Shown: positions 5,812 to 33,201 of the stretch, in pieces
How the letters are laid out: every line of letters starts with the position of its first letter
Numbering within the stretch: the first letter of the stretch is position 1
DNA from: a virus
Lineage: Duplodnaviria; Heunggongvirae; Uroviricota; Caudoviricetes
Length of the DNA stretch: 33,201 bases
Reading direction: 5' to 3' (one strand)
Virus record (IMG/VR): IMGVR_UViG_2574180227_000019
Notes under the pieces: model-generated
Database searches by the model: none
What the model was told of the DNA's origin: nothing
Seen by the model: the letters and a program-made list of their open reading frames with translations, nothing else
Program-made: the position numbers and the translations under genes

Positions 5812-7216
5812 TGATCACCTCCACAGTACTTCCCCCCGGCACAAAAAGCGGGTCTGAAATGTTGTTACGACGCACAAAATGTTGCCAGCGGGTGCTGTTT
5901 CCTGTTTCACGGTACAGGGTTACCAGTGCAGGTTCTGTCGCCCGGACGGATACCTGTACAGCCCCCGGCAGGGAGACCGCCCTGACCGTAAGATCTTCTG
6001 TCAACGCCAGGCGGGCATCCCTGAGAGTCAGGGCTGTGGAGGTATACCCCAGCGCAGACAAATCCATGACCTGTAATTCAAGCGCATCACTCAAATCACG
6101 GTTGATACGCTCAACATCTGCGGCACTTTCCAGCCAGACAAGACCGGCTGACTTCGTGTTATTACTTGTCCGGGCTGTTTCAAGACTGATTACCTGATCC
6201 AGCAATTTTCCCACTGTCTGAGCCTGAGACACCACGGCTGCACTCTGCATCACTGCCCTGAGAAGCCGGATATTTTGTTGAGCTGGCGGGGTAAGCCCAA
6301 TCAGACGCTGTGGATCATCCTGTTCTGTCAGCGCATAACGCAGGGAGGATAAGGTTCTGTAGAGCTGAGGAAGTCCCTGTTCAAGGGTGCTCTGCATCAC
6401 CACATCCAGACTCCCTGCGGGCAATTCGCCTCCACTGCCTCTGGTGTAAACCGTACCGCCATTCCCCCCGGAAGCACCGGTTACGGTACTGCCGGTATTC
6501 TTCCGGGTAAGGGAGAGCGCAGGGATCGTGGGTAATGCCGTCAGGGTGACAAACATACCCGCCAGTGATTCCGCCATTCGCTGCGGACTTGTGAGCAATG
6601 CGGTAACGTTACCTTTAAGCGCCGTAAACGTGGCCGTAAAGGCACTGATATCCTGCACAATCCCCATCCCGGAAACGGAATTTTCCAGCGCCTCAATTTT
6701 GTCACTGATGGTTTCAGCCATTGCCTGCACATCATGCATACCATCGGAAATGACGGTCCAGCCACTTGCCAGCGTACCAAACATGCTGTTCAGGGCTGCA
6801 CCACTTCTGGCCTCCAGAAGTGCAGCCGTATCCTGGCTGGCCGTTGGCGCTGTTTCATCACTGACCGGAGACACATTAATTGTGAATTCAACAATGCGCT
6901 GTTCATCGGCGCTGTAACGGCTTTCAAAGCTGTTTATCATCACGTTTAAAGTGCCATATTCCGGGTGCATAAGTTCACCCGGCCCGGGGGCGCGAAGGGC
7001 ATCCCGAAGACGGCTTCGTTGCGTGTGAACATCCTCTCCCATCACCAGTACGGTGAAGGTGTATTCCGGCAGTTTTGGCCCCAGATCATCTGCACCGCCC
7101 CGTTCCTGTAACGGATATTCCCGGCGAACGATATTACGCCCACCGCGTTCACGCTGTTCGCGAAATACCAGGAATGGCACACCGCGAAACGACCCCTTGC
7201 CGTCACCAGTGGACAT
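5801..7216 (-). CDS. DNA circularisation protein N-like (Mu gp43-like)
   Basis: Start re-chosen at the ATG at 7214-7216 (MSTGDGKGSFRGVPFLVF...) with GGAGGT upstream, overlapping the tape-measure stop (ATGTCCACTGGTGA); the track's N-terminal extension is rejected. Confidence 0.6.
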   Translation of the reverse strand: MSTGDGKGSFRGVPFLVFREQRERGGRNIVRREYPLQERGGADDLGPKLPEYTFTVLVMGEDVHTQRSRLRDALRAPGPGELMHPEYGTLNVMINSFESRYSADEQRIVEFTINVSPVSDETAPTASQDTAALLEARSGAALNSMFGTLASGWTVISDGMHDVQAMAETISDKIEALENSVSGMGIVQDISAFTATFTALKGNVTALLTSPQRMAESLAGMFVTLTALPTIPALSLTRKNTGSTVTGASGGNGGTVYTRGSGGELPAGSLDVVMQSTLEQGLPQLYRTLSSLRYALTEQDDPQRLIGLTPPAQQNIRLLRAVMQSAAVVSQAQTVGKLLDQVISLETARTSNNTKSAGLVWLESAADVERINRDLSDALELQVMDLSALGYTSTALTLRDARLALTEDLTVRAVSLPGAVQVSVRATEPALVTLYRETGNSTRWQHFVRRNNISDPLFVPGGSTVEVISEQ

Positions 7217-9269
7217 AGTTACCTCCGTTCCAGACATCCACATCCAGCGAACTGCCGGAGGTTTCATTGATATCAATACTTCTTGCGCTCCAGCCATCCG
7301 GGGCAACCAGCTCCACACGGGCAGAAGCCTGTTCAGCGGCTTTTCCTCCGCTGTTATCGGTATCCCCCCGTAGTTTTTGCCAGGCTTCTGTCAGCCAGCC
7401 GCCGAGATAATTACCGAGATAACTTCCCACCGTTGAACCGATAGCCACGCCGACAGGTCCTGCCGCAGCTCCCAGCGCTCCACCGGCAATGCTGCCAGCA
7501 AGAGAGCCGACAGCCTCCCCCTTGTTGGTAGCACTGGCACTATCGTCCAGCAGGACAGGGGCGGCCATCGCCCCGGCCCAAAGGGCTCCACCGCCCAAAC
7601 GACCGGCAACCCCACCGGCACGGCGGAAAAGGCCGGAGAAACGCCCCATACCCAGCCGGTTACCGGCGGATGAAAGCAAGCCACCGGCACGGCTCATCAT
7701 GCGCCCGAAGAAGCCCTGAGGGGGTGAGGCTGGCGGCGTTGCCGGTACAGTAACAACCGACGTCACCGGGCGTCCGCGCCCCGGCCCGCGTCTGGTGCGT
7801 CCACGCTGACGTTTTCCTTCACCTCCGCTGATCACATCAGAAACGCCCCCCGCCATGGCACCGGCTGGCCAGTTCATGACATTTACGGGCTGAATGGCTG
7901 CGGGGTTAACCCCCGTCAGAAAATTCAGGAACCGACCGCCACGCCCCGGTATGGTTTCGGGAACGGTGGTCTGTGGTTTGCGGAAGGGGGAGGTCAGAAC
8001 AGAAGCGGTGGACATGCCCCAGCGAAGCGGTGTTGCACCAAGACGCAGCGCACTTCCACCAACAGCCCTGACCAGTTTCAGTGCCCGGGTGGCCAGATAC
8101 ATATACAGCAGATATTTCGCAGCTGTCTGTGCACCACGAGCGATACCGTCCAGCGTATCGCCATACCCTGCATCACGCAGCGCCTGAAGCGTTTCCCGTA
8201 CCTTCTGAATAGCCCGGTAAAAACCAGTTGCCGCATCACGGGCATACTCAAAGCCCTGATTCAGGGCACCCGCTGTCTGTGCCGCCAGTTTTTCCTGAAG
8301 ACCGCTGGACTTTGCCTCATCAGCATAATCCAGAAAGCCTTTAAGGCTGTTTTTAAGGCTGTCAAAAGGTCCTTTGGCCATGACGTCACGGGCAAAGTCA
8401 TCCCATACATCCCCCATCATGGCAGTCATGCCCGTCCAGGAGTTCATGGCATTTTTCTGTGCACCTTTTGCCTGTTCTGCCATGACCTGGAACAGGAGAC
8501 GAATGCTGTCCGGTCCCAGCTTACCTTTGCTACCCAGATCACGAAGTACTTTCTGATCAACTTTCAGTTTTTCAGCCAGCAACTGATAAACGTTGATACC
8601 GTAGCCCGTCAGAATACTGGCATCAGCCGCCTGAATTGCACCACGGGAATACATCTGTTTGAGCTGAAGGGATGCGCCCTGCGCGTCAGCAAGGGACCAG
8701 CCGTGATAGCCCCCCTGATCCTGAAGCATGGTGATAAAGTTACGTGCTTCCTTATCACTCATACCAAAACCACGGCTGGAAGCGTATTCCTGCATAACGC
8801 CAGCCAGCCCCCACGTGGTTTCTTTTGCATTCTGGACAGCCCACTTACGGACGTCTTCTGTTCTGGATGTATCACCATGATTGATGGCATTGAGACGAAG
8901 AATGTAATTCTCCATCTCTGATGCGGGACGAAGAAAAGCCTTGTTAAATCCGTACGCAGCCGCACCACCGGCCAGCATCCCGTAAAGGTTGCTGATACGT
9001 CCCAGCGTACCGGTAATACTTCCCTGAAGCCGGTCAAAATCAGAGGTGACTGAACGGATACTGCCACGGACTCCGGCAAGCATACGTTGCATACGGGTGC
9101 CAACAAGATCAGTTTCCTGACCGGCACGACGGGCTGCATTACCCAGACCACCCAGCCCCGACTGTCCGGAACGGGAAAATGCCCCCAGCTCCTGCGACCA
9201 CTGGCGAGATTTAGCGGAAATATTGCCGAGCAGATCGACTATCAGGGAGGCTTTCAGATTTTTTGCCAT
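7203..9269 (-). CDS. Tail tape measure protein
   Basis: 688 aa ORF downstream of tube and chaperone; Gly/Ala-rich C-terminal region; correct position in a contractile-tail module. Confidence 0.8.
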   Translation of the reverse strand: MAKNLKASLIVDLLGNISAKSRQWSQELGAFSRSGQSGLGGLGNAARRAGQETDLVGTRMQRMLAGVRGSIRSVTSDFDRLQGSITGTLGRISNLYGMLAGGAAAYGFNKAFLRPASEMENYILRLNAINHGDTSRTEDVRKWAVQNAKETTWGLAGVMQEYASSRGFGMSDKEARNFITMLQDQGGYHGWSLADAQGASLQLKQMYSRGAIQAADASILTGYGINVYQLLAEKLKVDQKVLRDLGSKGKLGPDSIRLLFQVMAEQAKGAQKNAMNSWTGMTAMMGDVWDDFARDVMAKGPFDSLKNSLKGFLDYADEAKSSGLQEKLAAQTAGALNQGFEYARDAATGFYRAIQKVRETLQALRDAGYGDTLDGIARGAQTAAKYLLYMYLATRALKLVRAVGGSALRLGATPLRWGMSTASVLTSPFRKPQTTVPETIPGRGGRFLNFLTGVNPAAIQPVNVMNWPAGAMAGGVSDVISGGEGKRQRGRTRRGPGRGRPVTSVVTVPATPPASPPQGFFGRMMSRAGGLLSSAGNRLGMGRFSGLFRRAGGVAGRLGGGALWAGAMAAPVLLDDSASATNKGEAVGSLAGSIAGGALGAAAGPVGVAIGSTVGSYLGNYLGGWLTEAWQKLRGDTDNSGGKAAEQASARVELVAPDGWSARSIDINETSGSSLDVDVWNGGNYVHW

Positions 9270-9275
9270 CGTTTA

Positions 9276-9485
9276 CTGCTTCGCTTTAAGGATTTTTTCC
9301 GTTTGTTGGCAGTGCCGGTAAAGTTGCGATAAGGGGAGGTTCAGCGCCCATTCCGGGCCGCTTTTCGTCACCATCCCCAGTACTATCGCCGCTTCTTCAA
9401 TCTGCGCCCGACACTGCGCCTGCTCGCCCCCGGTCAGCCGCCAGCTTTCCGGCCATGGCTGTATCCAGAATGCCGACCGCCGCCA
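9276..9485 (-). CDS. Candidate frameshift extension of the tail assembly chaperone (+1 frame relative to 9397..9873)
   Basis: Manual translation: the frame shared with the tape measure is open for 70 codons between stops at 9486-9488 and 9273-9275, overlapping the last 28 or so codons of the chaperone and ending 3 nt before the tape-measure ATG. The -1 frame is closed (stops at 9434-9436 and 9383-9385). Confidence 0.3.
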
Positions 9486-9873
9486 TCAGACGGGACAGGT
9501 CACGTTCACTCAACTGCCCAACCTGGCGGAGGGATAACGGTCCCTGAATCTCACCGACAGCGGCAATCTGACGGCGCAGAAGTGCAATCCCCCGTAGAGA
9601 GGGAGACGCAATCAGCATCGGACCGTTACGTGTATCCATCACTTTCTCGGCTTCTGATTCAGCATCAATGCTGTCTTTCGCGGTCAGTTCCCGGAATGTG
9701 ACACGGTATTCACGGCTTTCACCGCAGGGCAGACCATCCAGCAGATCCACATACCCATTAGCCAGTTGTTCAGTCAGACCGGCGGTGCGCGGATCGCCTC
9801 CTTCAAGCGCTTCACGAATGGCCTCCATGACGCCTTCGTCTGAAACCGCTGTTTTTTTCTTACGTGATGCCAT
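9397..9873 (-). CDS. Tail assembly chaperone-like protein (Mu gp41-like)
   Basis: 158 aa ORF between tail tube and tape measure, the conserved location of the chaperone gene. Confidence 0.5.
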   Translation of the reverse strand: MASRKKKTAVSDEGVMEAIREALEGGDPRTAGLTEQLANGYVDLLDGLPCGESREYRVTFRELTAKDSIDAESEAEKVMDTRNGPMLIASPSLRGIALLRRQIAAVGEIQGPLSLRQVGQLSERDLSRLMAAVGILDTAMAGKLAADRGRAGAVSGAD

Positions 9874-9882
9874 AACTGCTCC

Positions 9883-10248
9883 TTACTGAACACGGGTACT
9901 GGTTGCGCTGGCGAACTTCGCAGAGATATCGCCACCACCATCTAAAGACGCGGGCTCCACACTCCAGGCTTTGGTCATCATATGGACTTCACCGGTATCG
10001 GCGACGAATTCAATTGTGACTGCGTTCCAGCTGTTGATTTCATCCGTTGCCGGCGAGCCTTCACCACCGGCCGGAAATTTGCATTCCAGCGTGGCCTCAC
10101 GGGGTTTCTCCCGGTAACCGTAGACCTTTGCGCCTTTCACGGCTTCACGTTCAAAACCGGATGGCGAGAAGGTTGCGCCTTCCAGCGTGGCAAACTCCTG
10201 ACCGTTCACACGGATGGTTGCGGTCCCCTGATACTGTTTTCCGCTCAT
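9883..10248 (-). CDS. Tail tube protein (Mu M-like)
   Basis: 121 aa ORF immediately downstream of the sheath gene; size and position. Confidence 0.65.
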   Translation of the reverse strand: MSGKQYQGTATIRVNGQEFATLEGATFSPSGFEREAVKGAKVYGYREKPREATLECKFPAGGEGSPATDEINSWNAVTIEFVADTGEVHMMTKAWSVEPASLDGGGDISAKFASATSTRVQ

Positions 10249-10256
10249 GAATTACC

Positions 10257-11759
10257 TCACAAAATGAAACGGATCTGCGCGGCCATAAAGCGGAACTGGT
10301 TAACCAGGTCCGGTGTGCACAACACATCAAGGCGGTTGCGATCTGATGTGTTACGCTCCACGAGCAGATTCTTTTTAAAAGTGTCCAGGTTCTCGACCAA
10401 CCCCTGATCGACCCATTCCTCACCCAGAGCAATCAACTGAAGCGTCATGATTTCCGGGGTTACAATATTCTGTCCCGCGCTCACCGGTGTGCCATTATCC
10501 GCCAGCTTATGGCGCGGAAAACGCTGCGTGATGAACGTTCGCAGGGAGTAACGCAGATATGAAAGGGTGTAGACGGTTTCCACATCCAGATAGCTGGGGT
10601 CATTGTCTCCATAGGCGTTCTGACGATACATCGTCACCTGACGTTCGATTTGCACCACATCACCGGTTGCGACGGTTACTGTAGCGATACCGCTCCACAG
10701 CAGGCTGTTTCGCTCTTCACGGGTCAGACGATCCGCTGCGGCGGGTGCCAGTCGGGGCGTGATGGCCAGTGTCTGAAGTGGACGTGCCGGATCCGAAGAT
10801 AATGACGGTGCGCATGTCGCACACACCGAGGCTGCCCACAGATAATCGGGTTCCGGTGCTTTTGGAATAGCCGTACAGGTAGCAAGAAAATCGTTACGTT
10901 TTTCACCGAACGCCTGTACTTCTCCGAATGTGCCCGTGTGAGCCATCCAGATGACTCCATCGGACATTTTGACCGGTCCCCAGCGTTTCAGCAGTTCATC
11001 GCTGATCACCTTCAGGTTTGCGTCATCCTTATAGGGCATGACGATGTAGTTGTACTGACGATCCCCCATCCCCGCCACGCTGCGGGTGATATCCGGGTTT
11101 GTGGCCTTCTGTTTTGGAGATGTTATCTGCAATGTAAGGCCGGAAGGGGTGGTTTCACCGTCGTAATAGTTCACACGTAAATCATGAACTGAGCACTCAC
11201 CGGTAAAACGGGCATTCACCCCCATACTGCCTTTAAGGCCTTCAGCATTATCTCCACTGACTTCTGCTGCATAAGCCGTGAATGGTGCATCAACATCGGC
11301 GTTAATGACCTTCACAAGTGCTTCCACAAGCGCTTTACCTTTTTGCCCTGTACCGACAGCCAGCAGATAACGGCGACCACCAATATAGACGCATAACACA
11401 CCGTCTGCCGTCGCCGTACCAATGATATTCATCACACACGCCTGCGGCTGACCAGTGCCCGCCCCCTGGGCAATGGCATATAACTCTGTGTCGGGATTAA
11501 TGGCGATGAATTCCGCCACCATCAGCGCAATCATGGAACCACGCCCCCAAAGCTCTCTTGCCTGAGATGCACGGGTAATACGTACAGGAATGTCCAGTTG
11601 ACCGGAACCCTGTACGGCGGTGTCTTTCATGGCAGCCTGCCCGAACAGCAACACAGACTGACGTTGCGCCGGGGTGCCGGTGACGGCCATGGAATTATCA
11701 AATTCAATCTGTACAAGCGGGATGCGGTTATCATCCCCAATCTGATTAAAACTGATCAT
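10257..11759 (-). CDS. Contractile tail sheath protein (Mu L-like)
   Basis: 500 aa ORF, ATG at 11757-11759, followed by the tube gene; size and synteny. Confidence 0.75.
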   Translation of the reverse strand: MISFNQIGDDNRIPLVQIEFDNSMAVTGTPAQRQSVLLFGQAAMKDTAVQGSGQLDIPVRITRASQARELWGRGSMIALMVAEFIAINPDTELYAIAQGAGTGQPQACVMNIIGTATADGVLCVYIGGRRYLLAVGTGQKGKALVEALVKVINADVDAPFTAYAAEVSGDNAEGLKGSMGVNARFTGECSVHDLRVNYYDGETTPSGLTLQITSPKQKATNPDITRSVAGMGDRQYNYIVMPYKDDANLKVISDELLKRWGPVKMSDGVIWMAHTGTFGEVQAFGEKRNDFLATCTAIPKAPEPDYLWAASVCATCAPSLSSDPARPLQTLAITPRLAPAAADRLTREERNSLLWSGIATVTVATGDVVQIERQVTMYRQNAYGDNDPSYLDVETVYTLSYLRYSLRTFITQRFPRHKLADNGTPVSAGQNIVTPEIMTLQLIALGEEWVDQGLVENLDTFKKNLLVERNTSDRNRLDVLCTPDLVNQFRFMAAQIRFIL

Positions 11760-31110: not shown

Positions 31111-33201
31111 TCAGGCCAGCGGGTCATTTTCTTTTAATTTCGCTTCCAGCAACTGCAATCCCCGCTGGAAATTACGCTCGTATTCTTCATCAGGTTCATC
31201 ATCAACGGCAGGTTGCTGAACGGCCACCGTATTACCCACCGGGCGGTAGATGTTTTCCAGCCATGGCTCCTGCGGCTTGTGCTCCAGCACGTTGACAACC
31301 TCATCCTCGGCATCACGGATTTTTTCCTCTGCGCGTTTACGCATACCTTTAAGGCGCTGCTGCTGTTTGTAGTATTCCGCGCTGACCGGGAAGGCTTCGC
31401 GTTTATTGCCGTCCCATACCGCCTCGCAAATCACGCTGCCATCCGGGCGACGTACGGTAATTCGTTCGGCATCATGAATGTCATAGCTGATAAGCACTTT
31501 GCGGCCATGTTCATCACGCAGCTCGGGCGCGTAGTAAATATTATTCAGCCAGCGTATTTCACAGCGTCTTACAGGGCGTTCCACCATCGGCCGGAACATG
31601 TCCCGCAATTCCACATCGGACAGCCATTCAATTTCCGTGTCCTCTTCTGCCAGGCGTTTTTTTCTGAACTCCGCCGGGCTGTAATGTTTACCGTTCGGCT
31701 TCATGGGTAATTCATCGTGCGGCCGGTTGTTGTACCACTCAACGCCGTCACGAATGGCATCAATCAGTTCAGACCAGGACGGTAAATCACGCATCGCTGA
31801 CTGCTGCCGGGCGTTCAGCCGCTTGCCCTGTTGCAGGGCAGTGAATGCCGAGCGTAAATCGCGGTTGGTTTTGCGTAACGTCTCGCGATCTGCACCTTTC
31901 CCGAAATAGGTGCGGTATTTACGGGCTATGCGCATCGGTAATGTGCGGTTAAGCCGTTCGATAATGCCCCGTCCCTGCGGATTACCGGCAATCCCGGTCG
32001 GGTGATTAATCCCCAGTCGCGGTAGTATCCCCACAATCTCCTTATCCAGGATGTCGGCGGTTTCCCCGGAGCCATTATCCGAGTAATACAGAAACGGTTT
32101 GCCGTGATGTCGAATACCGTGCTGTATGGCACCGGCTACGGCGAAAACATTTTCAGCCAGGTCAAGGCTCCAGCCCACCACAAAGCGTGTACCGCCATCG
32201 ATAACAAAGGTTACTTCCGGTGCAAATGGCCGCCCGTGAACCGGGTGCCTGCATTTCAGCTTCATGCCGTGACCGTCACCAATCCAGACATAGTTCACCG
32301 GCATTCTGGACCAGTCGCGGCGCGTGAATCCCTCAAGCTGGCGGTATTCACTGCCGGTCACCCGGCCTTTTTGTTTCACCACTTCCGGCAGTTTCTTCAT
32401 TGCGCGGCGAATGGTGTCATAAGACGGCATGATATCGAGCATATAAGGCTCATCAGCGTGCCGGTGCTGCCATTCAGCAACAAAATCCTCGTAAGCCTCG
32501 GTCATTGGTCGGCCGTTTGACTGGCGATACTGCGCCAGAAATTCGGGCAGCCAGTTAATATCTTCGGCTTTTATTTCCTGACGTTTACCCGGTGCCAGTA
32601 AAAGCAGGCGTTCAGCGGCGTTCTGTGCCTTGTTAAAGGCCGCAATCCAGCGTTTCAGCGTGATTTCACTCAACACGCGGCTGTTTCCCTTTTTGGCGTT
32701 CGCCGTCTCAACCATTGCCACTATGCGCTCGTCCAGTTGTGAGCGTGACAGGCGGTCAACGATAAAACGGATGGCTCTAGCGCAGCTGAAACCGGGTTGT
32801 TGCGCGAATTTCAGCACCTCGCTGACAATCGCGATTCGTGCCTCTGCCACCTGGCGCTGTTTTTCAGTCAGGGCATTGAGGCGTTCGACCATCAGTTGTG
32901 GTGAACCGCGATATGCCTCCACCGCATCAACCACGTCAGGTGAGCGTCTGGCCTTTGTCACCACCGGAACCGGTGATTCATCGACTTTTTGAGTCATCAG
33001 TTGCAGGGCGTAGCGTTCACGTAATGCCTGCTGCGTCACTTCAGGTAAACAGTCGATGCTGTATTCAGTTGCTTTAGAGCCTGAGCGACGACGGGAACAA
33101 CAGCTTTTCCCTTGTACGTAACGTTGTAATGCCTGGCGAATACCTTTTGTTGTAGCAGGCATTCCGGGCGCGCCAATCAGTTCTTTTGCAATGACATACA
33201 T
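31111..33201 (-). CDS. A: DDE transposase A (MuA-like); start at or just beyond the window edge
   Basis: 696 aa; N-terminus MYVIAKELIGAPGMPATTKGIRQA... parallels the MuA N-terminal DNA-binding domain as remembered; followed by the B gene as in Mu. The ATG falls on the last 3 nt of the window. Confidence 0.85.
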   Translation of the reverse strand: MYVIAKELIGAPGMPATTKGIRQALQRYVQGKSCCSRRRSGSKATEYSIDCLPEVTQQALRERYALQLMTQKVDESPVPVVTKARRSPDVVDAVEAYRGSPQLMVERLNALTEKQRQVAEARIAIVSEVLKFAQQPGFSCARAIRFIVDRLSRSQLDERIVAMVETANAKKGNSRVLSEITLKRWIAAFNKAQNAAERLLLLAPGKRQEIKAEDINWLPEFLAQYRQSNGRPMTEAYEDFVAEWQHRHADEPYMLDIMPSYDTIRRAMKKLPEVVKQKGRVTGSEYRQLEGFTRRDWSRMPVNYVWIGDGHGMKLKCRHPVHGRPFAPEVTFVIDGGTRFVVGWSLDLAENVFAVAGAIQHGIRHHGKPFLYYSDNGSGETADILDKEIVGILPRLGINHPTGIAGNPQGRGIIERLNRTLPMRIARKYRTYFGKGADRETLRKTNRDLRSAFTALQQGKRLNARQQSAMRDLPSWSELIDAIRDGVEWYNNRPHDELPMKPNGKHYSPAEFRKKRLAEEDTEIEWLSDVELRDMFRPMVERPVRRCEIRWLNNIYYAPELRDEHGRKVLISYDIHDAERITVRRPDGSVICEAVWDGNKREAFPVSAEYYKQQQRLKGMRKRAEEKIRDAEDEVVNVLEHKPQEPWLENIYRPVGNTVAVQQPAVDDEPDEEYERNFQRGLQLLEAKLKENDPLA

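What the first reader, a model, noticed from the sequence alone, without database searches (positions are those of the whole stretch)
9273..9873. Candidate programmed frameshift between tail chaperone and tape measure, requiring +1 rather than -1
The chaperone ORF ends at 9397, but the +1 frame (the tape-measure frame) is open for 70 codons from 9485 to 3 nt before the tape-measure ATG, overlapping the last 28 or so chaperone codons. The -1 frame is closed. Conserved tail-chaperone frameshifts are usually -1, so a +1 (or -2) event would be atypical; a chance open frame in GC-rich DNA is the alternative. No canonical slippery heptamer is visible in the overlap.
Basis: seen in the sequence. Interest (0 to 1): 0.4.

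Follow-up and report, generated by a model that had tools for sequence, protein, structure and literature searches.

The report
Mu-type -2 tail chaperone frameshift
The open frame is real and is the counterpart, in an E. coli Mu-like prophage, of the programmed -2 ribosomal frameshift already shown experimentally in phage Mu, so it is a correct call of something already known.

Summary
On the minus strand the chaperone ORF (9873..9397) is overlapped by a 70-codon open +1/-2 frame (9485..9276, stop 9275-9273, 3 nt before the tape-measure ATG at 9269), and the -1 frame is closed. On its own this is not significant (chance about 0.06). Comparison settles it. The window is a Mu-type transposable prophage of E. 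coli, and the chaperone is a Gp41_Mu (PF23746) protein. At 9431..9424 it carries GG_GGG_CGA in phase, the same octamer on which phage Mu makes its verified tandem -2 shift (GenBank AF083977 Mu_56; Xu, Hendrix and Duda 2004). In 175 related loci (134 distinct sequences), 133 keep NNG_GGG_CGA in phase. Codon choice there is frozen (GGG and CGA 67/67 in the first set), while other invariant residues use 2-6 codons. The extension stays open for 47-51 codons and evolves as coding sequence in that frame (changes at codon positions 1/2/3 = 200/112/331). The predicted product is a 200-aa fusion, ...DRGR|EQAQC...KQ, analogous to lambda gpGT. No stimulatory RNA structure was found here. Already known; low interest.

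The parts
9883..10248 (-). Tail tube gene (Mu gpM homologue), immediately upstream of the chaperone
   Evidence: Pfam PF10618 Tail_tube, E 2.7e-30. Same order sheath-tube-chaperone-tape measure as in Mu.
9397..9873 (-). Tail assembly chaperone ORF, frame 0 (158 aa, Mu gp41 homologue); the product of standard translation
   Evidence: ORF list. Pfam PF23746 Gp41_Mu, E 1.2e-30, residues 44-150 covering the whole profile, which ends at the RGR of the slip site. phrog_508 tail assembly chaperone, E 2.6e-40. 49% identity to Mu gp41 by tblastn.
9424..9431 (-). Slip site GG_GGG_CGA: last two bases of Arg148 CGG, then Gly149 GGG (P site) and Arg150 CGA (A site)
   Evidence: Read directly from the sequence. 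Identical in sequence and phase to the Mu site (PMC3458567). NNG_GGG_CGA is in phase in 133 of 134 distinct relatives. Synonymous codon choice is invariant.
9397..9425 (-). Dual-coding overlap: chaperone codons 151-158 plus stop in frame 0, extension codons 1-9 in the -2 frame
   Evidence: Frame translations. There are 0 substitutions from the slip site to the frame-0 stop (35 nt) against the ~83%-identical E. coli relatives L015 and L004, versus 62-63/300 in the chaperone body upstream.
9273..9425 (-). -2-frame extension: 50 codons (EQAQCRAQIEEAAIVLGMVTKSGPEWALNLPLSQLYRHCQQTEKILKAKQ) plus stop TAA 9275-9273. Predicted fusion is join(9873..9424, 9425..9273), 200 aa
   Evidence: Matches phrog_12783 (the family of separately annotated '41.5' ORFs), E 4.8e-35. 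Aligns to the Mu extension, sharing KSGPEWAL.LPLS...RHCQQ. Third-codon-position excess of substitutions in this frame.
7203..9269 (-). Tape measure protein gene, starting 3 nt after the extension stop
   Evidence: Pfam PF20155 TMP_3, E 1.8e-17. In relatives the extension ends from 17 nt before to 79 nt after the tape-measure start.

Best explanation
This is the orthologue, in an E. coli Mu-like prophage, of the phage Mu gp41 / FS-gp41 programmed -2 ribosomal frameshift. Most ribosomes translate the chaperone gene to its TGA (9399-9397) and make the 158-aa chaperone. A minority, with tRNA-Gly on GGG (9429-9427) in the P site and tRNA-Arg(ICG) on CGA (9426-9424) in the A site, slip back two bases on GG_GGG_CGA. 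tRNA-Gly re-pairs perfectly with GGG (9431-9429), and tRNA-Arg re-pairs at two of three positions with GGC. Translation resumes at GAG (9425-9423) and adds 50 residues, ending 3 nt before the tape-measure ATG. The result is a 200-aa fusion, ...AADRGR|EQAQC...KAKQ. By analogy with lambda gpG/gpGT, the shared N-terminal part would bind the tape measure protein and the extension would recruit the tube protein, with the fixed low ratio set by shift efficiency; neither protein would end up in the virion. Shown here: the frame, the slip site, its conservation, and coding selection on the extension. Taken from the literature and the Mu record: that the shift is -2 and tandem. Inferred only: the shift efficiency and the roles of the two domains in this prophage.
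For: The window is a Mu-type prophage: MuA, MuB, Portal_Mu, Mu-like_gpT, Gp37, sheath, tube, Gp41_Mu and TMP_3. It is 100% and 99.9% identical over 9150-10000 to two E. coli chromosomes. The Mu record AF083977.1 annotates Mu_56 as a joined CDS, 'verified -2 translational frameshift in PMID 15469818'. PMC3458567 states that tandem -2 slippage occurs on GG GGG CGA with A-site tRNA-Arg, and PMC5009743 lists Mu among -2 cases. The window has the same octamer in the same phase, and its extension aligns with Mu's. In 175 loci (134 distinct sequences), retrieved with peptide patterns that do not include the site, there are 116 CGG_GGG_CGA, 6 AGG_GGG_CGA, 11 AAG_GGG_CGA and 1 degenerate copy. These span chaperones down to ~35% identity, from phages and prophages of Escherichia, Shigella, Yersinia, Salmonella, Klebsiella, Serratia, Pasteurella, Vibrio, Shewanella and Alteromonadaceae hosts, plus unassigned IMG/VR contigs. 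Codon use at the site is frozen (GGG 67/67, CGA 67/67), whereas other invariant Gly and Arg columns use 4-6 codons. The C of CGA could change to A without altering either frame's protein, yet it never does. The third base of the preceding codon is always G, which a +1 shift would not require. The extension is 46-54 codons in 131 of 132 sequences and ends near the tape-measure start. Variation at -2-frame codon positions 1/2/3 is 200/112/331, chi-square p = 2e-25. No canonical start codon is conserved in position in the -2 ORF: none before extension codon 18 in the window, and none before codon 13 (usually codon 28, or none at all) in the Mu clade.
Against: Nothing in this window itself shows that the fusion protein is made; there are no proteomic or ribosome-profiling data. 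The open frame alone has a chance probability of about 0.06. No stimulatory element was found here. Downstream folding is no better than shuffles (z +0.82; clade mean +0.71). No consensus structure emerged, there was no Rfam match, and only a weak SD-like element lies upstream (-5.3 kcal/mol). Sequence alone cannot separate -2 from +1, because both reach the same frame. The sister clade with AAG_GGG_CGA lacks the G needed for perfect -2 re-pairing of tRNA-Gly. The chi-square treats alignment columns as independent and ignores shared ancestry.
Confidence: 0.9

Rival explanations
1. The shift into this frame is +1, not -2. tRNA-Gly in the P site moves from GGG to GGC while the A-site codon CGA (decoded through a poor I:A wobble) is slow to fill. 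This would give ...DRG|EQAQ..., one residue shorter.
For: It reaches the same frame as -2, so all the conservation and coding evidence is equally compatible. The invariant CGA would also fit a slow-codon mechanism. The Salmonella/Klebsiella/Serratia clade has AAG_GGG_CGA, where -2 re-pairing of tRNA-Gly meets AGG, a first-position mismatch, yet the extension is still under purifying selection.
Against: The homologous Mu event is recorded as an experimentally verified -2 shift. In 122 of 133 sites the two bases 5' of GGG are GG, and the synonymous third base of the preceding codon is G in all 133. That constraint is needed for backward re-pairing and is irrelevant to a +1 shift. SD-like elements 9-14 nt upstream in several clades are at the spacing I recall for stimulators of backward shifts (dnaX); this rests on my own knowledge, not a test.
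Confidence: 0.06
2. Chance open frame in GC-rich DNA; the 127-nt gap is simply non-coding spacer.
For: The single-sequence probability of 70 open codons is about 0.06-0.07. RefSeq/PGAP leaves the gap unannotated.
Against: The frame stays open with nearly constant length in 131 of 132 distinct relatives across many genera. The extension peptide is conserved and matches a PHROG family at E 4.8e-35. Substitutions show a third-position excess in exactly this frame. The slip octamer is invariant.
Confidence: 0.01
3. The extension is an independent small gene with its own start, as annotated in D108 (gene 41.5), not a frameshift product.
For: D108 annotates a separate 48-aa ORF there, and phrog_12783 exists as a stand-alone family.
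Against: There is no positionally conserved ATG/GTG/TTG; the first one ranges from 88 codons upstream to 27 codons into the extension, or is absent. In the window the first is the ATG at extension codon 18, which would drop the conserved N-terminal third. In Mu the -2 frame is closed 3 codons upstream of the site. The D108 ORF starts at what is CTG in the Mu sequence (the D108 sequence itself was not read). Protein conservation begins exactly at the slip site.
Confidence: 0.02
4. Transcriptional slippage on the G5 run (loss of one G or gain of two G in the mRNA) produces the fused reading frame.
For: Such changes would reach the same frame. Public assemblies do exist in which the chaperone and extension are fused in one ORF with a junction one residue shorter, consistent with a G-run one base shorter (confirmed at DNA level only for L140; P0002, P0100, L140). 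These are DNA-level variants or homopolymer sequencing errors.
Against: As far as I know (own knowledge), known transcriptional slippage sites are longer A or T runs, and five G is short. It would not explain the invariance of CGA, including its doubly synonymous first base. The Mu event is described as ribosomal tandem slippage.
Confidence: 0.01

Closest known systems
Phage Mu gp41 / FS-gp41 (Mu_41 / Mu_56) -2 programmed ribosomal frameshift (Xu, Hendrix and Duda 2004, PMID 15469818)
   Same: Same gene family (PF23746) and same position between tube and tape-measure genes. Identical slip octamer GG_GGG_CGA in the same phase. Same frame, same extension length (50 codons) and homologous extension sequence.
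   Different: The chaperone is only ~49% identical and carries a 14-residue longer N-terminus. The frame-0 stop lies 8 codons rather than 6 after the site. The extension stop is 3 nt rather than 14 nt before the tape-measure start. There is no experimental evidence for this prophage, and the event is not annotated in RefSeq.
Lambda gpG / gpGT and P2 gpE / gpE+E' tail assembly chaperone frameshifts
   Same: Same logic and genome position: two products sharing an N-terminus at a fixed ratio, encoded just upstream of the tape-measure gene (PMC5009743). The weak Pfam match to Phage_TAC_7 ('E, or 41 or 14', E 6.5e-5, below cut-off) links it to the P2 E family.
   Different: Those shift by -1 on X_XXY_YYZ heptamers. 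Here the -1 frame is closed, the shift is by two bases on an octamer, and there is no significant sequence similarity to lambda G/T.
Other documented -2 frameshifts (arterivirus nsp2TF, Trichomonas vaginalis virus 1)
   Same: Two-base backward slippage giving access to the +1 frame with one extra residue compared with a +1 shift (PMC5009743).
   Different: Unrelated genes and different slip sequences. The arterivirus case depends on a trans-acting protein stimulator (my own knowledge). No stimulator was detected here.

Membership tests
Mu-type tail assembly chaperone with -2 programmed frameshift | Chaperone belongs to the Gp41_Mu family | tested here: met
   PF23746, E 1.2e-30, 106 bits against a cut-off of 27, full profile 1-107 matched. 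tblastn to Mu gp41, E 3e-34.
Mu-type tail assembly chaperone with -2 programmed frameshift | Gene lies between the tail tube and tape-measure genes of a Mu-like myovirus tail module | tested here: met
   Sheath 11759..10257, tube 10248..9883, chaperone 9873..9397, tape measure 9269..7203. Same order as in Mu.
Mu-type tail assembly chaperone with -2 programmed frameshift | Slip site GG_GGG_CGA in phase with the chaperone frame, near its 3' end | tested here: met
   Window 9431..9424, with codons CGG GGG CGA = R148 G149 R150. Same as Mu (PMC3458567).
Mu-type tail assembly chaperone with -2 programmed frameshift | -2 (= +1) frame open from the site to the tape-measure start, encoding a conserved ~50-residue extension under purifying selection | tested here: met
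   50 codons, stop 3 nt before the ATG. phrog_12783, E 4.8e-35. Codon-position pattern 200/112/331. Window versus L015: 1/2/6.
Mu-type tail assembly chaperone with -2 programmed frameshift | A fusion protein is actually made, with a junction showing a two-base backward shift (extra residue) | not testable with these tools
   Known only for Mu, through the GenBank note and the literature. Curated records disagree on the junction residue: GenBank UIW09302.1 has RGR|E, UniProt P0DJY4 has RGG|E.
Canonical -1 tail chaperone frameshift (lambda G/GT type) | X_XXY_YYZ heptamer in phase, with the -1 frame open to the tape-measure gene | tested here: not met
   No in-phase heptamer in the last 150 nt of the window's chaperone gene. 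The -1 frame is closed at 9385, 39 nt after the site.
Frameshift sites with a downstream RNA stimulator | Stable or covarying hairpin or pseudoknot a few nucleotides 3' of the slip site | tested here: not met
   Window z +0.82, Mu z -0.09. No covarying pairs among enterobacterial relatives or family-wide. Clade mean z +0.71. Pseudoknots were not modelled.

The most novel reading that the evidence does not exclude
The slip mechanism may not be uniform across the family. The window's nearest non-E. coli relatives (Salmonella, Klebsiella and Serratia prophages) have AAG_GGG_CGA, which removes the perfect -2 re-pairing of tRNA-Gly. The enterobacterial clades also lack the downstream hairpins and strong upstream SD-like elements seen in the Vibrio/Shewanella and B23 clades. 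So in this lineage part or all of the flux into the extension frame might be +1 (GGG to GGC with a slow CGA), or a P-site-only -2 shift giving RGG|E as UniProt annotates.
Probability: 0.08. Interest if true: 0.4.

Novelty: already known. Interest (0 to 1): 0.15.

Why it matters
There is little new biology. The Mu -2 frameshift has been the documented exception to the -1 rule for tail assembly chaperones since 2004, and this window carries the same site in the same gene family. The practical value is for annotation. RefSeq/PGAP leaves the 127-nt gap empty in E. coli genomes carrying this prophage, and other records call the extension a separate hypothetical gene. A simple rule would therefore add the missing fusion product in many Mu-like prophages: a Gp41_Mu chaperone, in-phase NNG_GGG_CGA, and a -2 frame open to the tape-measure gene. 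The survey also quantifies how rigidly the octamer is kept, 133 of 134 distinct sequences across many gammaproteobacterial hosts. It turns up one natural variant (AAG_GGG_CGA) and clade-specific candidate stimulators that could serve anyone studying what makes a ribosome slip by two bases.

Tried and rejected
1. DNA-level search against phage records finds only a Mu-like insert in two Stx phages at 83% identity and a short 70% patch in SfMu. Mu itself is too diverged for blastn, and protein-level search was needed.

2. The search for related loci with chaperone alignments A1 and A2 failed, because no stretch was conserved enough. A single-protein scan of genome contigs found nothing. The survey therefore rests on eight viral-contig scans, phage records, E. 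coli genomes and Logan contigs.

3. The paper of Xu et al. 2004 is not held in the library. Its content is cited only through the GenBank note and two open-access papers.

4. A literature search for the octamer gave only PMC3458567.

5. The search for a downstream stimulatory structure was negative for the window and its clade: single-sequence folds, family-wide and clade alignments, z-scores against dinucleotide shuffles and Rfam.

6. The upstream SD-like element is enriched family-wide (mean best -7.15 versus -3.93 kcal/mol in controls) but weak in the window and Mu. It is also confounded by a conserved (K/Q)EL peptide, so it is not claimed as part of the mechanism here.

7. There is no Pfam family for the extension and no solved structure related by sequence.

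8. The 5.8-billion-protein search returned no annotated full-length fusion for this clade, only short products and two ORFs fused with a junction one residue shorter.

9. Structure prediction and fold search were not run, because they would not bear on whether or how the shift occurs.

Full report
**What is in the sequence**

All genes of the window run on the minus strand. Around the finding lie four genes:
- the tail sheath gene, 11759..10257;
- the tail tube gene, 10248..9883;
- a 158-aa ORF, 9873..9397, stop TGA 9399-9397;
- a 688-aa tape-measure gene starting at ATG 9269, after a 127-nt gap.

Translating the three forward frames of the minus strand from 9873 shows the following:
- The frame offset by +1 (equivalent to -2) is open from 9485 to 9276, 70 codons. 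It ends at TAA 9275-9273, and only ACG separates that stop from the tape-measure ATG.
- The -1 frame has stops at 9436, 9385, 9370 and 9343.

**Is the open frame more than chance?**

Not on its own evidence (all):
- In the +1 frame of 18 long genes of this window, stops make up 3.9% of codons, which gives a probability of 0.06 for 70 open codons.
- Of 20000 shuffles of the segment, 1345 remain open.
- Of 264 +1-frame open runs in those genes, 14 are at least 70 codons long.

**Identity of the element**

The window is a Mu-type transposable prophage. Pfam finds Mu transposase domains, MuB, Portal_Mu, Mu-like gpT, Gp37, sheath, tube, the tape-measure family TMP_3 and the DNA circularisation protein. 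The segment 9150-10000 is 100% and 99.9% identical to the chromosomes of E. coli SW070917 and DETEC-S792. It is about 83% identical to prophages in 15 other complete E. coli genomes.

The 158-aa protein matches Pfam PF23746 (Gp41_Mu) at E 1.2e-30 over the whole profile, and the profile ends exactly at residue 150. A conceptual chaperone-plus-extension fusion aligns by tblastn to Mu, D108, SfMu and Yersinia Mu-like phages over residues 33-195. The alignment comes in two pieces, that is, in two reading frames.

**The known counterpart**

The current GenBank record of Mu (AF083977.1) carries, besides Mu_41, a joined CDS Mu_56. Its annotation reads 'verified -2 translational frameshift in PMID 15469818; tail assembly chaperone frameshift product'.

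Lin et al. 2012 (PMC3458567) describe the event as tandem -2 slippage on GG GGG CGA. After the slip, the A-site tRNA-Arg (anticodon ICG) pairs better in the -2 frame than in the -1 frame. The review of Atkins et al. 2016 (PMC5009743) lists Mu among the -2 cases. It also notes that tailed phages use -1, -2 or +1 shifts for the two tail assembly products. I could not read Xu et al. 2004 itself.

**The slip site in the window**

Mu reads ...CAA GAA CGG GGG CGA GTG.... The window reads ...GCT GAC CGG GGG CGA GCA..., with CGG at 9432-9430, GGG at 9429-9427 and CGA at 9426-9424. This is the same octamer in the same phase.

After a tandem two-base slip the next codon is GAG (9425-9423). The added peptide is EQAQCRAQIEEAAIVLGMVTKSGPEWALNLPLSQLYRHCQQTEKILKAKQ, 50 residues. 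Mu adds EWLRCRNDIEKAATAIGVILKSGPEWALSLPLSRFFRHCQQAKTLSQYHR, also 50 residues.

The window's extension matches phrog_12783 at E 4.8e-35. That family consists of ORFs some annotators call a separate gene, such as D108 '41.5'. The predicted fusion is 200 aa.

**Comparative test**

I collected loci from several sources:
- phage records;
- E. coli genomes;
- eight scans of IMG/VR with ten-fold different chaperone queries;
- Logan contigs.

None of the peptide patterns used for retrieval covers the slip site. In total there are 175 loci, 134 of them distinct over the last 150 nt of the chaperone plus the extension. They fall into four classes:

| In-phase site | Distinct sequences |
|---|---|
| CGG_GGG_CGA | 116 |
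| AGG_GGG_CGA | 6 |
| AAG_GGG_CGA | 11 |
| None | 1 |

The single sequence without a site (L140) is a copy with a G4 run and a second frameshift upstream, so it is probably decaying or mis-assembled.

The chaperones go down to about 35% identity with the window's protein. They come from phages or prophages of Escherichia, Shigella, Yersinia, Salmonella, Klebsiella, Serratia, Pasteurella, Vibrio, Shewanella and Alteromonadaceae hosts, plus IMG/VR contigs with no host assignment.

The extension is 46-54 codons in 131 of 132 scorable sequences. It ends between 17 nt before and 79 nt after the tape-measure start.

**Selection acts on the nucleotides of the site**

In a codon alignment of the first 67 distinct sequences, other invariant residues use many codons. 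One invariant Arg uses 6 codons, two invariant Gly use 4 each, and an invariant Ser uses 6. At the site, Gly is GGG in 67/67, Arg is CGA in 67/67, and the preceding Arg is CGG (61) or AGG (6).

Three positions are informative because a change there would alter neither protein:
- the third base of the preceding codon;
- the third base of GGG;
- the first base of CGA (CGA to AGA keeps Arg, and GGC to GGA keeps Gly).

All three are invariant. The base just 5' of the G run does vary (C or A). A requirement for G at the two positions upstream of GGG is what backward re-pairing of tRNA-Gly by two bases needs. A +1 shift would not need it.

**The extension is coding in the -2 frame**

Downstream of the frame-0 stop, I counted the minimum number of changes per alignment column, summed within groups of equal geometry. 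The totals are 200, 112 and 331 at -2-frame codon positions 1, 2 and 3 (chi-square p = 2e-25). This ignores phylogenetic non-independence.

Between the window and its 83%-identical E. coli relatives the counts are 1/2/6, 4/2/10 and 1/2/7. The chaperone body shows 11/4/47 in frame 0. The stretch from the slip site to the frame-0 stop, 35 nt including the 29-nt dual-coding overlap, has no change at all against two of the three relatives.

**Independent initiation is unlikely**

The first ATG/GTG/TTG in the -2 ORF has no conserved position. It lies anywhere from 88 codons upstream of the extension to 27 codons inside it, or is absent. In the window the first one is the ATG at extension codon 18. 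In Mu the -2 frame is closed three codons upstream of the site.

**Stimulators**

I found none for the window:
- The 105 nt from the site fold no better than shuffles: window z +0.82, Mu z -0.09.
- RNAalifold gives no structure family-wide. Among ten enterobacterial sequences it gives only invariant or single-sided pairs.
- The window's clade has mean z +0.71.
- Rfam has no match.
- Complementarity to the 16S 3' end, 9-14 nt upstream of the site, is enriched across the family (mean best -7.15 against -3.93 kcal/mol at control positions). It is strong in the B23 (-10.3) and Vibrio (-8.2) clades but weak in the window (-5.3) and Mu (-4.0).
- The G5 run itself is strongly complementary to the anti-SD sequence.

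These are leads only.

**Direction of the shift and the junction**

Sequence alone cannot separate -2 from +1. The case for -2 rests on the Mu record, the literature, and the conserved upstream G bases.

Curated records disagree on the junction residue. GenBank UIW09302.1 has ...ERGR|EWLRC (tandem slip), while UniProt P0DJY4 has ...ERGG|EWLRC. For the window the corresponding predictions are ...DRGR|EQAQC and ...DRGG|EQAQC. A +1 shift would give ...DRG|EQAQC.

**Function**

In lambda, gpG and the G part of gpGT bind the tape measure protein, and the T part binds the major tail protein. The ratio of the two products matters for assembly, and neither is in the virion (PMC5009743). The same roles are inferred here by position and by homology to Mu gp41. 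They were not tested.

**Verdict**

The interpretation as a programmed shift into the +1/-2 frame is right, but the event is the already documented Mu-type -2 frameshift on GG_GGG_CGA. It is not a new or atypical +1 case. The useful by-product is an annotation gap: PGAP does not annotate the fusion product in E. coli genomes with this prophage, and the large protein collection holds no annotated fusion for this clade.

Noticed in passing
L084:1956-1967, L085, L086:1959-1970, L087; also L144-L149 and L174 (Salmonella, Klebsiella, Serratia prophages): The closest non-E. coli relatives of the window's chaperone (74-77% identity) carry GAC_AAG_GGG_CGA: four G instead of five, with Lys in place of the first Arg. 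This is 11 of 134 distinct sequences and 27 of 102 close protein homologues. The extension frame is the same, open, and under purifying selection (codon positions 20/9/38). A -2 slip of tRNA-Gly would land on AGG here, so either a first-position mismatch is tolerated or the mechanism differs. One protein of the clade (P0081) has DRGR.
   Followed up: partly
L009, L010, L011, L061-L083 (Vibrio and Shewanella Mu-like phages), about 20-60 nt after the slip site: The 66 nt downstream of the site fold far better than dinucleotide shuffles in these clades (mean z -3.1 to -5.3; 71-100% below -2). Enterobacterial clades, including the window, show nothing (z about 0). By eye, the 6-10 bp hairpins sit in different registers in different lineages, so RNAalifold finds no consensus. 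The spacer of ~22 nt is long for a classical stimulator.
   Followed up: partly
9-14 nt upstream of the slip site in L007, L036-L045 (B23 clade) and the Vibrio clade; window 9442-9434: There are Shine-Dalgarno-like elements (GAGGTGG, AAGGAG) upstream of the site: -10.3 and -8.2 kcal/mol against a -3.9 background. They are weak in the window (GGCGGCTGA, -5.3) and in Mu (-4.0). The signal is confounded by a conserved (K/Q)EL peptide.
   Followed up: partly
Mu record L001:1453-2017; proteins P0103 and P0104: Two curated databases give different junctions for the Mu frameshift product. GenBank UIW09302.1 has ...TQERGR-EWLRC, and UniProt P0DJY4 has ...TQERGG-EWLRC. Both are 188 aa.
   Followed up: yes
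Proteins P0002 (E. coli, NCBI), P0100, P0105, P0110 (Logan assemblies); locus L140:1527: In several public assemblies the chaperone and extension are fused in one ORF. P0002 and P0100 have junctions ...DRG-DQAQC and ...ERG-EWLRC, one residue shorter than a -2 product, and P0105 and P0110 are 187 aa. This implies a G run one base shorter. A G4 run was seen at DNA level only in L140, which also has a second frameshift upstream. These are either homopolymer sequencing errors or natural variants that make only the long product.
   Followed up: partly
window 9273-9396; L014, L015, L016 (RefSeq E. coli genomes); L003:1871-2017 (D108): PGAP annotates only the 158-aa 'phage tail assembly protein' and leaves the 127-nt gap empty in E. 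coli genomes with this prophage. D108 annotates the extension as a separate 48-aa hypothetical protein (gene 41.5) beginning at what is a CTG codon in the Mu sequence (the D108 sequence itself was not read).
   Followed up: yes
window 9282-9292 (minus strand GGAAAAAATCC): A run of six A lies near the end of the extension, 10-20 nt before the tape-measure start. It is not in phase for an X_XXY_YYZ shift in the extension frame, and I saw no open frame that it would give access to.
   Followed up: no
window 31111-33201: The Mu transposase A ORF begins at the very last base of the window (ATG at 33201 on the minus strand), so the repressor/early-regulatory end of the prophage and its left attachment end lie outside the window. 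The low-coordinate end (1-1000) lies in the tail-fibre region, so the window holds most but not all of the prophage.
   Followed up: no
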